From NCBI GenBank assembly GCA_963674755.2, contig CAXXVS010000002.1, positions 1,568,001 to 1,632,000 of the forward strand: a DNA stretch of 64,000 nucleotides. The letters run 5' to 3'. The position numbers are program-made. Shown here piece by piece: positions 42,001 to 48,000 of the stretch. Origin of the DNA: Desulfobacterales bacterium. Its GTDB lineage: Bacteria > Desulfobacterota > Desulfobacteria > Desulfobacterales > UBA5852. Position 1 is the first letter of the stretch; the number at the start of each line of letters is the position of its first letter.

Positions 42001-45000
42001 CTGATCGCCCGTCTGGGAAAATTCGGCCATCGGCTCCTGGCGCTTTCCCGGGGGGAGGACCCCACCCCGGTCACCCCCCACACACCGGCCAAATCGGTGA
42101 GCTCCGAGAATACCCTGCCCCGGGATACCGGCGACCAATCTGTCCTGCATGGTCTGCTGCTGCACCATGCCGAAGATGTCGGCCGCCAGCTGCGACGGCT
42201 GGGGCTCAAAGCGCGCACCATTACCCTCAAAATCAAACACGCGGATTTTCAGCAGGCCACCCGCAGCCGCACCCTCAAGCAGCCCACCCAGTCTTCGGAA
42301 ACGATTTTGCAGGAAGCGGACACCCTGCTGCGACACTACCCCCTGACCCGCAAAGTGCGCCTGATCGGTGTGGGGGCATCCCATTTTGTCCCTGCGAAAG
42401 CCCCCGTTCAGGCCGATCTTTTTACAGAAAAGAACAAGCCGCCGGCCAACTGGGAGAAAGTCGACCACGCCGTGGACGCCATCAACGAACGCTTTGGCAA
42501 TGATGTTATCCGCAAAGCGAGCCTCGTGGCTTGCGGCAAGCAGAACACCGAACCGGAGAAATAACCGCCCCCGCCGGATAGAAGGACCACACGCCCCCGC
42601 TCCCGTCCCGGGCCAGGCTCCTTTGGAAAACGCCGCAAACAGGCTTAAAGATGACGGATCAGCCCTTCCAGCAGGTCGCGGATATCCTTGGCGGGGAAGC
42701 AGAAGTGCATCTCCCGGAACCGTTTCCGCAAGGCGGCCACCTCGTCCTTGACCCGGCGCTGATCAGCCACCACATCATGGATCAACTGGGCCAGGGTCTG
42801 CATGTCGGCCTCCTGCATGCCGAAGCGGGTCATCTCGGCCACGCCCATGCGCAGGGCCCCCGAAGCGGTAAAGCCTTCCTCGGTGGGGCCGGCCTGGTAG
42901 TTGACGATGAGGTTGTTGTCCTCCAGACGCCGGGCGACTTCAGGGCCCCGGCCGTAGCCCACCTGCACGATCACCTGGTGGGTTTCCGTATAGCCCATGG
43001 CCGCATCGCCGGCCACGTCCAACCCGGTATCCTTGAGGGCCGCCGCCAGCGCTTTGGCATTGGCGAGGACCTGGCGCTGGTAGGGATCCTTGAAGGCGTT
43101 CATCTCATAGGCCGCCATCAGCAGCCCCAGGAGGGTGCCCAGGTGGTGATTGCTGACGCTGCCCGGAAAGGCGCGCCGCTGGATGGCCTGCCACAGGGCC
43201 CAGGTTTCATCTTCCAGCCGGACATCCGCGCCCACGATCCCGCGCTGGGTGCCGAAAAAAGTCTTGTGGGTGGATCCCGTGACCAGATCGGCCCCCTCCT
43301 TGAACGGCTCCTGAAAGTGGGGACCGGCCAATCCCAGGACATGGGCCATGTCGTACATGAGGACGGTTTTAAGGCCCATCTCATCCACCAGGGCGCGGAT
43401 TTCTTTCACCGGTTCCTTGTGAAGGGTCATGCTCCGGCCGAAAATAACCAGTTCCGGGCGATAGGTCTCAAGCAGTTCCCGGCAGGCGGCCACATCCACC
43501 TGAAAGGGATTGTCGGCCAGGACCGGGAAGTTCACCACGGCCGGCTTTTCGGTACGGGGGTCCCGGGCCACGAAGTCCCGCAGGGCGCCCATGGGCTGGG
43601 CGCTGAGATGCCCCCCTTTGATAATGTGATGATTCATGACGGGGCGTATGCGGCGTGGTTCCCGCCGGCGATCCGTGCGGTTCAGGTAATCGACCATGGC
43701 GCTGAAAACGGCCGTGTTGGCCATCTGTCCGGAAATCAGGCGGGTCTCCACCTCGCGGCAGCCCAGAAAGCTGCGCATCTCAGCGGCCAGCAGGGCCTCA
43801 GTTTGGGCGATGAATTCGGTTCCCTGGTAGTAGAACACGTCGCGGTCTTCCAGGGCGGCCACGGTCTTGTGTTCGGCATAGCGGCCCACCGGATCCATGA
43901 TGGAGAGCAGCCGCGTCAGCCGGGACATGGTCTGCTCCGAGGGGATCAGGTTGATGCAGTCCTCCTGCCGCCAGGCCGTGTTGGCGATTGCTTTTTCCAC
44001 CAGCAAACGGGCTTTCTGCAGCCCCTGGGCCTCATCATAGCGTGTTTTGATATCAGGATGCAGCTGCTCGTAAAGGATGGGGCGCGCCAGGGGCGGCGCC
44101 TCGGCCCTCAGGTGATAGGGCACCACCAGGGCGCCATGACGCTTGCCGCGGATGTCCACCTCCAGAGCATCCCCTTCCCGCAAGTCGCTGTCGAGCAGGG
44201 CCAGCCCGATGGCCCGGCGTCCTTTTTCTTCGGTCATCCGGGCCTCGATCCCTTCTCCCTGATAGCGCCAGTAAGGGACCATGGTACCGCTGGTGACATA
44301 GCCGGCCGGACCGCTGTTACGATAGACCAGCGCTCCGGCCCGGGCGATCCCTTTTCCGGAAATCGCGATCGGCATCACCAGCTGGGGCAGATCTTTGTTA
44401 CGCGTGTAATCCTGCCGTTGAATGCGCTTCCAGGCGGCAAACTGCCGGGCCAGGGCTTCCCGGCCGATATAATCGCCTTTCAGGGAGGCAAAGCTGACGG
44501 CGAAACGGGCCAGGCTGCAGGCGAAGATCGGAATCGGGCGGCCGTCCTTGTCCGGACCGAGTTCATGGCCATAAAGGGGCAAACCGGCTTCCAGGCGCAG
44601 AGTGTCGCGGGCTCCGAGCCCCACGGGTATGGCCCCCTGCGCCATGAGGGCCCGCCAGATGGTATCGGCATGCTCCGCCGGGAAAAACAATTCGAACCCC
44701 AGGGGCTCGCCGGTGTAGCCCGTGCGGGCCAGCCAGACTTCCGCCGCGCCGATGCGCGCCAGGCTGAGGGCATTTTTTTCCGGCTCCGGCACCCTGCCGG
44801 CGGTTAGCAGCGCTTGCAGGACGACTTTGGATTGGGGTCCCTGCAAACTGATCATGGCCAAGTCCGTCGAGCGATCCGTCATTTCCAGATCTTCGAAGGC
44901 GGCGCCGACCGTCTGCAAATGGGCCCAGTCCTTCGCGCGGTTGGCGGCATTGACCACCAACAAATAGTCTTTGGCATGAAAACGATAGAGATAGGCGTCA

Positions 45001-48000
45001 TCGACGGCGCCGCCGTCTTCATCCGGGATCATGGTGTACTGGCTTTGTCCCACATCGAGAGCGGCGGCATTGTTGGTCAGCACCTTCTGCAGAAAGGCCA
45101 GGGCCGACGCCCCGCCCACGGCAAAACGCCCCATGTGGGAAACATCGAAAATGCCGGCGGTCCGGCGGGTCATCAGGTGCTCGTGCAGGATGCCCTCAGG
45201 ATACTGCACCGGCATGTGCCAGCCGCCAAAATCCACCATGGTGGCACCCAGCTCCTCATGAAGGTCGTGCAATACGGTTTGCAGGAGTTCCGTCATGGGT
45301 TGTTCCTTTCCTTTGAATGGTGCGGTCCGCAGCGCGTGGCGCACGAGGGTGAAAAGTATGGCCCTTCACCATACAGCCAGGCCCATCATTCGAACCTTAC
45401 GGTCGTTGCATATGCTTGGACAGGAGATTTCGCAGCCGAACAGGTGCGTATGACTTTCCTCATATTACAGTGGGATCGAATTTACCAGAGGTGTTGGCTA
45501 AGGGGAAGAGGGACGGGGTCTGCTGTCAGTGCCCATCCAGCGGTGGTCGATTTTGGTTTCTGGCCCCGCCGCCCAGCGCGGGATATCCCGTCTGATCGTT
45601 GAACCCGCCGGTGCTCGACAAAACGCCGTCGACGGGCGCCCACAGGTGTAGCCCGACTACGCCGAGGACCGGCGGAAGGCGCGAACGCCGATTTGTCCGC
45701 CAAGGGGGGGGCTTATTCGGGGATCCGGTCCACCGGCGTCGGGCCGGGGGCCAAAAGATGCCATTAAGGGATGGGCACTGACGGGTAATACCCTGCGGGC
45801 GATGATGCCGCGATGGCCAGGAGCGTCCCGGCGGCGGCCGGTCAATGGTTTGCCGATCTCACGTAATGATCACGATTTCAGGCAAATCGTGCAGTTTCTG
45901 CCACACGCGCCGCAGAATGATCATGGCAGGATCGGTATTTTCCCCGACGTCGGAAACCCGGGCCATACAGGATTCCAATAAATCCTCGTTGCCGGTCCAA
46001 ATTTTGAACTCATCCAGCACATATTGGGCAACCGAATCGTAAAGACGTAAAAAATCGTTTTCGGTCATGCTCGACAGGGTTACCATTTCTTTGGGCGGAA
46101 GATCGGCAATCAGCAGATCGGCTACTTCGTCGACCGTCCGCGGGAGGTCTGGTTTGAATGGCTTTTCGTACATCATGGGTCTCAGAATTCCTTGGTTATG
46201 TGGACACTCACTACAGCCATCATAGGCTGTGGAGGTAGTTTTCAAAACCTGTGCCAAATTCCGCCGTTTTTCCATCGTAGTTCTTATACCTGTGTTTTCA
46301 AAGCGTTAGGGCCTAACATGCGATCTTGGCGTCAGGTACTGAACGCGGCTTGATGTTGCCGACCCCACAATTTTGTGCTGTTGACGTCATGTTTTTGACG
46401 AAATTGCGTGATCGATGAGTGGTTTCGCATCCTGATCCCCCCTATGGCGATGCTACCCCGCCGGGGCCAAAACTCGGCCTTTAATGAAAAAACTATGGCG
46501 GAAAACAACGGTCGCAAGCGTTAGACCGGTAAAATAAGGTTATCCACCCACGATAAAAGCCGACCATTGACAAGGATGTCGGCAATTATTATGAATGGGT
46601 CACCCATTAACATAGATCCGGTTTAGGGGTTCATCGCCCCGCTAATTGTGGGATGTAAAGGCCGAACCGGCACTTCTCCGAGAAGAGACCATGTTCCGTA
46701 AAACCCCTCACAACCGCATTTTCCAGGATTTGGTCGGACAAATCCAGGAAGCGATTCTGGACGGCCGTTTGCAGCCCGGCGACAAACTGCCGTCACAAAG
46801 GGAGCTGGTTGCGATGTTTCAGACCAGTCGTGCATCCATTCGGGAAGCCCTGCGCGTACTGGAACAAAAGGGGCTGATCGAGGTCAAGCTGGGCGTCAGC
46901 GGCGGGGCGGTCGTCAAGAACGCCGGCACCGAACCCATTACGGAATCGTTGAAACTGCTGCTCCATCAAAACCAGGTCTCCAGGGAACATCTGGCGGCGT
47001 TCAGGGAAAGTATTGAAGGCGATGTAGCCGCCAGCGCTGCGCGTCGGGCGGGACCTGATGAAATCCAGCGGCTGGAGTCTATTCTGTCTGAGGCCGGAGC
47101 TTGCCTCGAAGATGCGAAGGCCCTGCCCCAGGATTTTCTTCGCACGGACATCCGTCTGCACATCGCCCTGGCCGAGATTTCCGGCAATCCGATCTTTGTT
47201 GCGGTGACCCGAATGGTGCATGAGACCATCCTCGGCTTGTACGACCGCTTCACCTTGCGTCGTCGTGATGTGCTGGAAGAAAATTATCGCGATCTCTGCG
47301 ACCTGGTCGACGCCGTCAAAAAAGGCCAACCCGAACAGGCCCGCCGCCTCGCCTTGCAGCATGTGCAGCGCTTTAACCGGCATCTCCAAACAGCAGCAAA
47401 GACTTCGCGCGAATCCGTATCCCCGGCCGATCGGCCTTTACAGGATTGAAGAGCCGCAAGCCGGCCGCCATGGCCCCGACCGGTTGCTTATAATGGATCG
47501 AAAATTATCAAAGGCAGGAGGAACCATGAACTCGCAGGACTACATCGAGCTTGAGAATCGTTATGGCGCCCACAACTACAAACCTCTGGACGTCGTGCTG
47601 ACGCGGGGCCAGGGCATCTGGGTCTGGGATGTGGAAGGCAAACGCTATCTGGACTGCCTTTCGGCCTATTCGGCCGTCAATCAGGGGCACTGCCACCCGG
47701 CCATCATGCAGACCATGGCGGATCAGGCCCGGCTGTTGACCCTCACCTCACGGGCCTTCCGCAATGATCAACTGGGCCTCCTCTACAAAGACGTCTGCGA
47801 GCTGACCCACTCCCATAAAATGCTCCCCATGAACAGCGGGGCGGAAGCGGTCGAGACGGTGATCAAAGCGGTCCGCAAGTGGGGCTACAAGGTCAAGGGC
47901 GTGCCGGACGACCAGGCGGAAATCATCGTATGCCGCAACAATTTTCACGGTCGTACCATCACCATCGTGGGCTTCAGTTCGGACCCGGGCTCCCGGGACG

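What a model noticed while it worked through the whole genome (the two positions that open the first line are those of the whole stretch)
42645..45296. Glycine-cleavage T protein fused to an archaeal-type serine hydroxymethyltransferase in one 883-aa polypeptide
Gene g02619 encodes a full GcvT aminomethyltransferase (residues 1-395, passes the TIGR00528 GcvT equivalog cut-off) joined to a complete PLP-dependent SHMT domain (residues 430-883, THK lysine motif kept) whose nearest solved relative is the archaeal Methanocaldococcus SHMT, not bacterial GlyA. Both enzymes use 5,10-methylene-tetrahydrofolate, so the fusion should couple glycine cleavage/synthesis directly to glycine-serine interconversion. 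Databases name it only 'GcvT'.
Evidence so far: Pfam GCV_T 9-249 + SHMT 433-839 (pfam.tsv); NCBIfam GcvT TIGR00528 264 bits (cut 235.9) on the N half, SHMT subfamily NF000586 246 bits (below cut 335) on the C half; best PDB hits of the C half are 4uqv/4bhd SHMT at E 6e-47 (I recall these entries as M. jannaschii SHMT), against about 1e-15 to 1e-22 for the other SHMT chains listed. Full-length uninterrupted orthologues (60-78% id, query residues <=31 to >=868 of 882) in 33 of 120 other Desulfobacterales genomes sampled, and high-identity pieces cut by contig ends in 7 more; more than 100 full-length ~883-aa database proteins, including cultured Desulfoluna species and Phycisphaerae/Planctomycetes MAGs, named GcvT or aminomethyltransferase [...]
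(Added by a program. Inside this text positions count along the whole contig: contig position 1,568,001 is position 1 of the stretch shown here. "Call 12" and the like, gene names such as g00115 and contig names such as C1 are that model's own, and its searches are not shown. The text may have been shortened before it was handed on; [...] marks where a part breaks off. The agent that wrote the report below was given it as the finding of a first reader that could run no searches.)

Follow-up and report, generated by a model that had tools for sequence, protein, structure and literature searches.

The report
Natural GcvT–SHMT fusion enzyme gene
One uninterrupted gene joins the folate-dependent T-protein of the glycine cleavage system to an archaeal-type serine hydroxymethyltransferase, a widespread but apparently unstudied pairing that probably links glycine breakdown directly to serine formation.

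Summary
An 883-aa ORF on the minus strand (42645-45296) carries a complete GcvT (residues 1-395, above both NCBIfam GcvT cut-offs). It is joined to a complete SHMT domain (about 431-883) whose closest solved relative is the Methanocaldococcus jannaschii enzyme. Catalytic motifs of both halves are conserved in 55 aligned family members.

The fusion is widespread: 160 of 401 genomes sampled from the same order, plus at least nine other phyla.

- In 33-36 of 78 related loci it lies within 10 kb of gcvH and gcvPA/PB.
- In 7 of 8 Bacillota loci a glycine riboswitch precedes it.
- In 6 of 6 Bacillota genomes searched it is the only SHMT and the only GcvT match, so the SHMT half must do housekeeping folate chemistry there.
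- In this genome it stands alone; gcvH/PA/PB lie on another contig beside a sub-threshold T-like gene.

The two halves are predicted to dock (AF2 pTM 0.89; ipSAE 0.65 against 0.00 for controls).

The most likely function is 2 glycine → serine + CO2 + NH3 with folate recycled on one protein. Direction and channelling are inferred, not shown. Six literature searches found no description. This scan has already reported the same fusion on other genomes. I class it as a new variant of a known kind.

The parts
42645..45296 (-). Whole gene: 883-aa GcvT-SHMT fusion plus stop codon
   Evidence: ORF and translation; Pfam and NCBIfam scores; AF2 mean pLDDT 92.4, pTM 0.89
44112..45296 (-). GcvT half, residues 1-395 (folate-binding domains plus C-terminal barrel). 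Invariant or near-invariant D99, D100, N116, TGYTGE 192-197, E202, R230, R234
   Evidence: NF001567 324 bits > 300; TIGR00528 260.9 > 235.85. 1yx2 E 5.9e-59. Foldseek 1woo TMt 0.88. Invariant columns in 55 sequences
44007..44111 (-). Linker, residues 396-430. Conserved APP at 400-402, then a variable stretch; pLDDT falls to about 60 at 411-420
   Evidence: Conservation profile of 59 sequences; AF2 pLDDT blocks
42648..44006 (-). SHMT half, residues 431-883. Keeps IPSE (E454), RYAEH (Y473), GGH (H563), D649, STHK (H677, K678 = PLP lysine) and R816
   Evidence: Pfam SHMT 112 bits. 4bhd/4uqv 164 bits, aligned over the full length. Foldseek 4bhd TMt 0.88. Invariant columns
45303..45314 (-). Shine-Dalgarno-like AAAGGAAAGGAA ahead of the ATG at 45296
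   Evidence: Sequence; GAAAGGA is identical in 5 of 5 aligned relatives
45528..45780 (.). Repeat of about 250 bp with terminal inverted repeats (MITE/REP-like) in the 5' intergenic region. Not part of the enzyme, but it lies between the gene and the upstream ORF
   Evidence: 51 matches in the own genome at 66-100% identity, one of them the query's own place. Fold -131.7 kcal/mol, z -2.8. Depth spike in three DNA runs. WIN-only blocks in this intergenic stretch in the alignment with relatives
45859..46275 (-). Co-directional upstream 138-aa ORF, with a weak sub-threshold DUF6794 match. Its C-terminal coding sequence is conserved upstream of the fusion in the four closest relatives
   Evidence: Pfam DUF6794 21 bits < 27.1; alignment
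41233..42564 (+). Convergent downstream neighbour: DinB / Pol IV family (IMS domains). Unrelated to glycine metabolism
   Evidence: Pfam IMS 177 bits, IMS_C 106 bits

Best explanation
The gene encodes a bifunctional enzyme.

The N half is a true glycine-cleavage T-protein. It takes the aminomethyl group from the lipoyl arm of H-protein, releases NH3 and forms 5,10-methylene-THF. The C half is a PLP-dependent, folate-using SHMT of the archaeal-type clade. It condenses that methylene-THF with a second glycine to give serine and regenerate THF.

Together with the P, H and L proteins, which this genome encodes elsewhere, the net reaction is 2 glycine + NAD+ + H2O -> serine + CO2 + NH3 + NADH.

Fusing the two halves fixes a 1:1 stoichiometry. 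The halves dock on each other, which would keep the labile methylene-THF local and let one folate cycle between the two sites. All steps are reversible, so the same protein can also serve serine/glycine breakdown or glycine/serine synthesis.

Shown here: the domain identities, motif conservation, gene linkage, sole-copy status in some hosts and a predicted interface.

Inferred: the enzyme activities, the direction of flux and channelling.
For: N half:
- It passes both GcvT cut-offs.
- It aligns with solved T-proteins with the DVSHMG, DD, VVNAAN, TGYTGE and GLGARDTLRLEAG motifs kept.
- Foldseek TMt to 1woo is 0.88.

C half:
- It aligns over its full length with M. jannaschii SHMT, sharing GSTHKTFFG.
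- H677, D649, R816, Y473 and G561-G562 are invariant. K678, E454 and H563 are at least 90% conserved in 55 sequences that go down to 36% identity.

Gene context (n = 78 loci, within flanks of at most 10 kb):
- gcvH in 33
- gcvP subunits in 36
- an Lrp/AsnC regulator in 17
- lipoyl-synthase-like genes in 13
- Lpd-like genes in 11

Other context:
- A glycine riboswitch lies directly upstream in 7 of 8 Bacillota loci and in 0 of 8 other loci scanned.
- The fusion is the only PF00464 match and the only PF01571 match in 6 of 6 Bacillota genomes. It is the only GCV_T match in 7 of 11 genomes examined.
- Some loci carry serine-to-C3 genes just downstream. These are hydroxypyruvate-reductase-like plus aminotransferase in L016, L070 and L079, and SerK-like plus SerB-like in seven loci.

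Own genome: gcvH, gcvPA and gcvPB are present on C1. The T-like gene beside them scores 205 < 300 and 167.5 < 235.85.

Structure:
- AF2 gives pTM 0.89 and mean pLDDT 92.4 for the whole chain.
- With the halves folded as separate chains, ipSAE is 0.65 against a best control of 0.00. That mark was reached by 116 of 157 solved complexes and 2 of 215 mismatched pairs. The runs share at least 82% of contacts and partner pLDDT is at least 89.
- No PDB chain covers both halves (best TMq 0.44), so the pass is not from memory of a solved fusion.

Biochemical rationale: passages read in PMC7227101 report that adding SHMT to an in-vitro GCS reaction kept formaldehyde from methylene-THF decomposition near zero.
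Against: - No biochemical data exist for any member.
- In this window no gcv gene is adjacent. No riboswitch was found (Rfam E <= 1 gave 0 hits).
- This genome also has two canonical glyA genes (554 and 446 bits), so the fusion is not essential for SHMT activity here.
- The C half misses the NCBIfam SHMT cut-off (243.6 < 335).
- The predicted interface residues are no more conserved than the average residue of each half (N 0.644 vs 0.665; C 0.729 vs 0.724).
- The linker is variable and of low confidence.
- I could not measure the distance or orientation between the two folate sites, because no coordinates were available to scripts.
- In Bacillota the sole SHMT sits behind a glycine riboswitch. 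That is awkward if the enzyme must also make glycine from serine.
Confidence: 0.62

Rival explanations
1. The same bifunctional enzyme works mainly in the reductive direction, as in the reductive glycine pathway. Both halves would consume methylene-THF made from CO2 or formate: the T half with H, P and L to make glycine, and the SHMT half to turn that glycine into serine for assimilation.
For: All the reactions are reversible (established biochemistry). The hosts are mostly anaerobes of lineages in which this pathway is discussed (search listings). In several loci the downstream genes lead from serine to C3 compounds, which fits assimilation as well as catabolism.
Against: Glycine riboswitches upstream in 7 of 8 Bacillota loci point to induction by glycine. 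By my recollection these are usually ON switches for glycine catabolism. In the reductive direction no folate intermediate passes between the two sites, so docking would bring less benefit. I did not search this genome for formate-THF ligase or other C1-branch genes.
Confidence: 0.2
2. The C half is not a true folate SHMT. It would be an SHMT-fold aldolase or transaldolase, or a methanopterin-specific enzyme, so the fusion would couple glycine cleavage to some other chemistry.
For: NF000586 is not reached (243.6 < 335). The third-best PDB relative is an L-threonine transaldolase (7k34, 96 bits). The nearest solved enzyme comes from a methanogen. The family carries three insertions relative to classical archaeal-type SHMTs.
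Against: It is the only SHMT-family match in 6 of 6 Bacillota genomes, whereas SHMT is found in 14 of 14 control genomes. By my recollection those hosts use folate, not methanopterin. The fluorothreonine transaldolase model scores 133.7 against a cut-off of 650. The residues that bind PLP and the substrate carboxylate are kept. The domain is fused to a folate-dependent T-protein.
Confidence: 0.08
3. In this genome the N half acts apart from the glycine cleavage system, as a GcvT-family demethylase or aminomethyl-transferase on another substrate. The argument is that the gene is unlinked to gcvH/P and the gcv operon has its own T-like gene.
For: No gcv neighbour lies in the window or in the four closest relatives L013, L014, L075 and L077. 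A T-like gene sits beside gcvH on C1.
Against: The N half passes the GcvT equivalog cut-off, whereas the C1 T-like protein and the SoxA-like protein on C3 do not. Demethylase models score far below their cut-offs: DmdA 39 < 410 and TMAO demethylase 130 < 1100. Orthologues at 60-65% identity sit in the gcvT position of gcv operons.
Confidence: 0.07
4. The fusion is an artefact: a misassembly, or a frameshift that joins two genes.
For: None was found. One related locus, L091, does show a split or broken copy.
Against: All 120 database clusters listed are 840-934 aa with the same architecture. 160 of 401 order genomes match. Independent contigs bridge the junction with no indels.
Confidence: 0.01

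Closest known systems
Stand-alone glycine cleavage T-protein (GcvT/AMT, EC 2.1.2.10; PDB 1yx2, 1woo, 3a8i)
   Same: The N half has the same three-domain fold (TMt 0.82-0.88) and the same motifs. Its scores lie above the GcvT cut-offs. In many relatives it occupies the gcvT position ahead of gcvH-gcvPA-gcvPB.
   Different: It carries a covalently attached 450-aa SHMT. It has insertions in the third domain (about 286-305 and 343-360) and an extra 'EP' after TGYTG. In this genome it is unlinked to gcvH/P.
Archaeal-type SHMT of Methanocaldococcus jannaschii (PDB 4bhd, 4uqv)
   Same: This is the best solved relative of the C half: 164 bits, about 30% identity, aligned over the full length, TMt 0.86-0.88. 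The two share GSTHKTFFG and FPGxxSNHHL.
   Different: The C half is fused to GcvT. It carries three insertions (about 476-487, 539-552 and 576-590) that are shared with only a few stand-alone relatives: P0249, P0254, P0274 and P0294. It probably uses folate, whereas I recall the M. jannaschii enzyme preferring methanopterin.
Bacterial GlyA (PDB 1dfo; NF000586)
   Same: Same fold and PLP chemistry. In Bacillota carriers the fusion appears to replace GlyA.
   Different: Only about 71 bits to 1dfo, and below the NF000586 cut-off. This genome keeps two ordinary glyA genes in addition.
Functional coupling of glycine decarboxylase and SHMT in plant mitochondria during photorespiration (recalled; cited as reference 19 in PMC7227101)
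   Same: Same net reaction (2 Gly -> Ser + CO2 + NH3), with folate shuttling between the T-protein and SHMT.
   Different: There the two are separate proteins. Here they form one polypeptide with a predicted fixed interface.
Reverse-order SHMT-(decayed T)-GcvT fusions noted earlier in this scan (e1-358390, e1-1243926)
   Same: The same two activities are joined in one chain.

Membership tests
GcvT aminomethyltransferase (TIGR00528 / NF001567) | Score above the curated whole-protein cut-offs | tested here: met
   NF001567 324 > 300; TIGR00528 260.9 > 235.85
GcvT aminomethyltransferase (TIGR00528 / NF001567) | Three-domain T-protein fold | tested here: met
   Foldseek 1woo E 5e-33, TMt 0.88; 3a8i TMt 0.82, on an AF2 model with pLDDT 92.4
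GcvT aminomethyltransferase (TIGR00528 / NF001567) | Conserved catalytic and folate-site residues. These are the Asp pair aligned with the Asp mutated in 3a8k, the Asn of VVNA(A)N, the Glu of TGYTGE and the Arg of GARD; their functional roles are recalled. | tested here: met
   D99, D100, N116, E202, R230 and R234 are invariant and E197 is at least 90% conserved in 55 sequences. Alignments to 1yx2, 1woo and 3a8i.
GcvT aminomethyltransferase (TIGR00528 / NF001567) | Genomic linkage to gcvH and gcvP | tested here: inconclusive
   Not linked in this window. Linked in 33 (gcvH) and 36 (gcvP) of 78 related loci. This genome has gcvH/PA/PB on contig C1.
GcvT aminomethyltransferase (TIGR00528 / NF001567) | H-protein-dependent aminomethyl transfer to THF | not testable with these tools
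   Needs an enzyme assay
Serine hydroxymethyltransferase (PF00464 / NF000586) | Pfam gathering score | tested here: met
   112 bits > 27, profile positions 8-399 of 399
Serine hydroxymethyltransferase (PF00464 / NF000586) | NCBIfam NF000586 cut-off (bacterial GlyA-type subfamily) | tested here: not met
   243.6 < 335. The C half is therefore not a GlyA-type member, although it belongs to the SHMT superfamily.
Serine hydroxymethyltransferase (PF00464 / NF000586) | PLP lysine in the T-H-K motif, the Asp to the pyridine N, the stacking His and the carboxylate-binding Arg (roles recalled) | tested here: met
   H677, D649 and R816 are invariant; K678 and H563 are at least 90% conserved. Motif alignment with 4bhd.
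Serine hydroxymethyltransferase (PF00464 / NF000586) | THF-dependent Ser/Gly interconversion | not testable with these tools
   Indirect only: it is the sole PF00464 match in 6 of 6 Bacillota genomes, while SHMT is found in 14 of 14 control genomes
Serine hydroxymethyltransferase (PF00464 / NF000586) | Obligate homodimer with a shared active site | not tested
   Two copies of the whole protein exceed the size limit of complex prediction
Archaeal-type SHMT clade (M. jannaschii-like) | Closer to archaeal than to bacterial or eukaryotic SHMT | tested here: met
   4bhd/4uqv score 164 bits, against 96 bits or less for every other chain. Among 10 stand-alone relatives looked up, 2 clusters carry organism names: Schekmanbacteria and Woesearchaeota.
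L-threonine / fluorothreonine transaldolase (TIGR04506; PDB 7k34) | Score above the cut-off | tested here: not met
   133.7 < 650

The most novel reading that the evidence does not exclude
The fusion is a self-contained 'glycine-to-serine synthase' module. One tightly held (poly)glutamyl-folate would shuttle between the docked T and SHMT active sites without entering the bulk pool. This would prevent formaldehyde leakage from methylene-THF. In some Clostridia the module would have displaced both GlyA and stand-alone GcvT, so that the cell's entire serine/glycine/C1 exchange runs through one glycine-riboswitch-controlled protein.
Probability: 0.3. Interest if true: 0.75.

Novelty: new variant of a known kind. 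Interest (0 to 1): 0.6.

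Why it matters
GCS and SHMT are the two central entry and exit points of folate one-carbon metabolism. 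They are also the core of the reductive glycine pathway now being engineered for formate and CO2 assimilation.

A natural, conserved, docked fusion of the two would be a ready-made test case for folate channelling. It is also a candidate part for engineering, since in vitro an added SHMT suppresses formaldehyde loss from the GCS (PMC7227101, passages read).

The finding corrects an annotation as well. Hundreds of genomes label this protein only 'GcvT'. As a result, SHMT is scored as missing in carriers that lack glyA, and pathway reconstructions for anaerobes (sulfate reducers, syntrophs, rumen Lachnospiraceae) are wrong at this step.

Tried and rejected
1. Bacillota carriers might lack the phosphoserine pathway, so the fusion would be their serine synthase. 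Rejected: serC scores above its cut-off in 4 of 6 genomes, with a short PGDH-like gene beside it.
2. A riboswitch or other known RNA upstream of the window gene. Rfam at E <= 1 found nothing in 45250-46700. The sigma-70 scan found no more sites than in shuffles.
3. Interface residues more conserved than the rest. They are not.
4. Searching for stand-alone relatives of the C half with the search for homologous proteins. The list was swamped by truncated pieces of the fusion. The representative search was more useful, but only 2 of the 10 clusters looked up carry organism names.
5. The 298-aa protein downstream of the fusion in other loci had no Pfam match. It gave only a weak SerK match of 50.9 bits against a cut-off of 380, so its identity stays tentative.
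6. G170 and G265 as possible alternative architectures. G170 is simply a 967-aa variant. G265 is a split or broken copy.
7. Expression. The one RNA run laid (X19) gave two exact short contigs inside the gene, at 42741-42906 and 45232-45368. An RNA library can hold DNA and the share of words was small, so this is only a weak hint.
8. Literature. Six full-text searches found no paper describing a natural GcvT-SHMT fusion. Passages read in PMC12674515 concern separate gcv genes. The library lacks most subscription journals.

Full report
**Observation**

The window carries an uninterrupted 883-codon ORF on the minus strand at 42645-45296. The ATG at 45296 follows AAAGGAAAGGAA. Conservation with the four nearest relatives starts at this ribosome-binding site and start codon, not at the upstream GTG.

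Pfam finds GCV_T at 9-249 (266 bits), GCV_T_C at 361-393 and SHMT at 433-839 (112 bits). NCBIfam gives GcvT scores above both cut-offs: NF001567 324 against 300, and TIGR00528 260.9 against 235.85. The SHMT score, NF000586 243.6, is below its cut-off of 335.

Against solved structures, the N half matches B. subtilis, T. maritima and E. coli T-proteins at E 6e-59 to 4e-47. The C half matches 4bhd/4uqv at 164 bits, and every other SHMT-fold chain at 96 bits or less. Foldseek names 4bhd/4uqv as Methanococcus jannaschii SHMT. Independent metagenome contigs cross the domain junction with no indels.

**Integrity of the two halves**

I aligned 55 family members that go down to 36% identity. In the T half, D99, D100, N116, T192-G193-Y194, E202, R230 and R234 are invariant. 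In the SHMT half, S453, Y473, G561, G562, D649, S675, H677 and R816 are invariant, and E454, H563 and K678 (the PLP lysine) are at least 90% conserved.

The linker (396-430) is variable after a conserved APP motif.

AF2 on this alignment gives mean pLDDT 92.4 and pTM 0.89, with low confidence only at 411-420. Each half superposes on its solved counterparts (TMt 0.88 to 1woo and to 4bhd). No PDB chain covers both halves; the best TMq is 0.44.

**Distribution**

- All 120 listed clusters at 90% identity are 840-934 aa and carry GCV_T and SHMT. Where a source names them, the name is only GcvT or aminomethyltransferase.
- One scan of species-representative genomes found 220 stretches that encode a relative. 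The 78 loci kept come from Thermodesulfobacteriota, Bacillota, Planctomycetota, Gemmatimonadota, Acidobacteriota, Chloroflexota, Actinomycetota, Spirochaetota, Candidatus Moduliflexota and others.
- In the window's own order, 160 of 401 sampled genomes match at E <= 1e-50. That is 107 of 278 high-quality genomes and 66 of 174 genera, counts that include the window's own genome. Five of the nine other genomes of the same genus match.
- In a FastTree of 59 full-length proteins, Bacillota (5), Gemmatimonadota (3) and Acidobacteriota (2) each form one group. The window groups with L013, L014, L075 and L077. Rows under 860 aa or over 1000 aa were left out of that tree.

**Context elsewhere**

I called ORFs in the 78 loci and clustered them. 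Pfam on cluster representatives shows the following, counted as loci with a member within the fetched flanks:

- GCV_H in 33 loci
- GDC-P (PA/PB) in 36
- an Lrp/AsnC regulator in 17
- lipoyl-synthase-like radical-SAM genes in 13
- an Lpd-like oxidoreductase in 11

The commonest order is Lrp - fusion - gcvH - gcvPA - gcvPB - lipA-like. Many loci are cut by contig ends, so these counts are lower bounds.

A glycine riboswitch (RF00504, often tandem) lies directly upstream of the fusion in 7 of the 8 Bacillota loci. L056 is the exception. It was found in none of 8 other loci scanned: the window, L022, L086, L047, L048, L061, L015 and L018.

Some loci have serine-processing genes just downstream:

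- L016, L070 and L079 carry a 2-hydroxyacid dehydrogenase, followed in L016, L070 and L079 by a class I/II aminotransferase.
- Seven loci carry a 298-aa protein with a weak SerK match; in five of these (L032, L038, L046, L058, L060) an ACT-ACT-HAD SerB-like protein follows it.
- In L078 the SerK-like unit is fused to a PGDH-like dehydrogenase.

**Does it replace the separate enzymes?**

I searched whole genomes for PF01571 and PF00464.

- In all 6 Bacillota genomes (G005-G010) the fusion is the only match to either family. SHMT is found in 14 of 14 control genomes.
- In G002 it is the only GCV_T match.
- In G001 the other GCV_T matches lie in frames of 815-972 aa.
- G000, G003 and G004 also have a GCV_T protein in a frame of 422-491 aa.
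- The five non-Bacillota genomes keep one or two ordinary glyA genes.

These genomes are MAGs of unstated completeness. Even so, 6 of 6 is hard to put down to gaps. Bacillota use folate (recalled), so the fused SHMT must be a working folate SHMT there.

**This genome**

The gene has no glycine-related neighbour. DinB converges on its 3' end. Upstream lie a small conserved co-directional ORF, then a divergent GntR regulator and arginine/ornithine-type genes. The four nearest relatives share this arrangement.

gcvH, gcvPA and gcvPB lie on contig C1, behind a T-like gene. That protein has only the GCV_T domain, is 33% identical to the fusion's N half, and fails both GcvT cut-offs (205 < 300; 167.5 < 235.85). 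A SoxA-like protein on C3 also fails them. The fusion is therefore the only protein in this genome that passes as GcvT. Two canonical glyA genes are also present.

**Do the halves touch?**

I folded residues 1-402 and 425-883 as separate chains, each with its alignment. The ipSAE was 0.65, 0.67 and 0.62 in three runs, against 0.00 in three controls. That mark was reached by 116 of 157 solved complexes and 2 of 215 mismatched pairs. Contacts agree at 82% or more, and partner pLDDT is at least 89. The tool cautions that these calibration counts hold only roughly with one's own alignments.

The confident contacts are:

- T half: 76, 78-79, 157-158, 168, 171-173, 198-199, 268, 270-272, 350-351
- SHMT half: 559, 580-584, 594, 781, 785-786, 789, 805-812

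Residue 559 lies next to the GGH loop. Residues 805-812 follow the N799-Y-Q stretch, which aligns with the folate-flap region of other SHMTs (role recalled). Residues 198-199 follow TGYTGE. This is consistent with the folate entrances facing each other, but I could not measure it.

As a set, the interface residues are no more conserved than the average residue of each half. N76, P172, P198, S268, E807 and F809 are invariant in the 59-sequence set.

The insertion at 576-590 that supplies residues 580-584 also occurs in the nearest stand-alone relatives (P0249, P0254, P0274, P0294), so it is not exclusive to fusions.

**Reading**

The best-supported mechanism is a bifunctional enzyme that links the T-protein step of glycine cleavage to SHMT. 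With P, H and L the net reaction is 2 glycine -> serine + CO2 + NH3 + NADH, with folate cycling between two docked sites.

The riboswitch, the gcv-operon position and the downstream serine-to-C3 genes favour the glycine-consuming direction. The reductive direction is not excluded. In this genome the H, P and L components would have to be supplied in trans.

Passages read in PMC7227101 show that SHMT added to an in-vitro GCS reaction abolishes formaldehyde release from methylene-THF. That gives a plausible selective reason for the fusion.

**Novelty**

Six full-text searches found no description of a natural GcvT-SHMT fusion. The library lacks most subscription journals.

This scan has already reported the same fusion in at least 13 other genomes, and a reverse-order fusion in others, with the same reading. 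Those are unchecked AI notes, and I saw them after forming my own reading.

I class the finding as a new variant of known kinds: two textbook enzymes in an undescribed, conserved, docked fusion.

Noticed in passing
window 45528-45780: A GC-rich repeat of about 250 bp with terminal inverted repeats (GTCAGTGCCCATCC ... GGATGGGCACTGAC). It gives 51 matches in this genome at 66-100% identity, one of them the query's own place. It forms a long hairpin (-131.7 kcal/mol, z -2.8) and shows a 5- to 15-fold depth spike in metagenome DNA runs. The four nearest relatives lack it at this site. It looks like a MITE- or REP-like element inserted between the upstream ORF and the fusion gene.
   Followed up: partly
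own genome, L003:1306-2748 (G000 contig C1, beside gcvH-gcvPA-gcvPB): The T-like gene of the gcv operon has only the GCV_T folate-binding domain and no GCV_T_C match. It scores below both GcvT cut-offs and has an unassigned C-terminal part of about 150 aa. It is a divergent T-protein variant sitting in the operon position.
   Followed up: partly
L032:12702-13598, L046:12952-13848, L034, L037, L038, L058, L060; L078:4975-6822: A conserved 298-aa protein with no Pfam match and only a weak match to archaeal ADP-dependent serine kinase SerK (50.9 bits against a cut-off of 380). It lies directly downstream of the fusion in seven loci; in five of them (L032, L038, L046, L058, L060) an ACT-ACT-HAD SerB-like gene follows. 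In L078 it is fused to a PGDH-like dehydrogenase. This may be a route from serine to phosphoserine to 3-phosphoglycerate.
   Followed up: partly
L053:9757-9912, L080:9757-9912, L052:9759-9910, L066:3050-3204: Tandem glycine riboswitch aptamers control the fusion-gcvH-gcvPA-gcvPB operon in Lachnospiraceae MAGs, where the fusion is the only SHMT in the genome. It is unexplained how glycine and C1 units are made from serine when glycine is scarce.
   Followed up: no
window 45859-46275 (-): A 138-aa ORF with a weak, sub-threshold DUF6794 match. Its 3' coding sequence is conserved directly upstream of the fusion in L013, L014, L075 and L077.
   Followed up: no
window 36581-37333 (-): A RibD_C / DHFR-like protein (RibD_C 66 bits, DHFR_1 52 bits) about 5 kb from the fusion. 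It is a possible folate-related neighbour. I did not examine it further.
   Followed up: no
L091 (G265:C14) 6515-9252; L092 (G170:C9) 5412-8312: G265 holds a second copy that is split or broken: a 327-aa GCV_T ORF and a 465-aa SHMT ORF about 350 nt apart. G170 holds a 967-aa variant with a longer middle section.
   Followed up: partly
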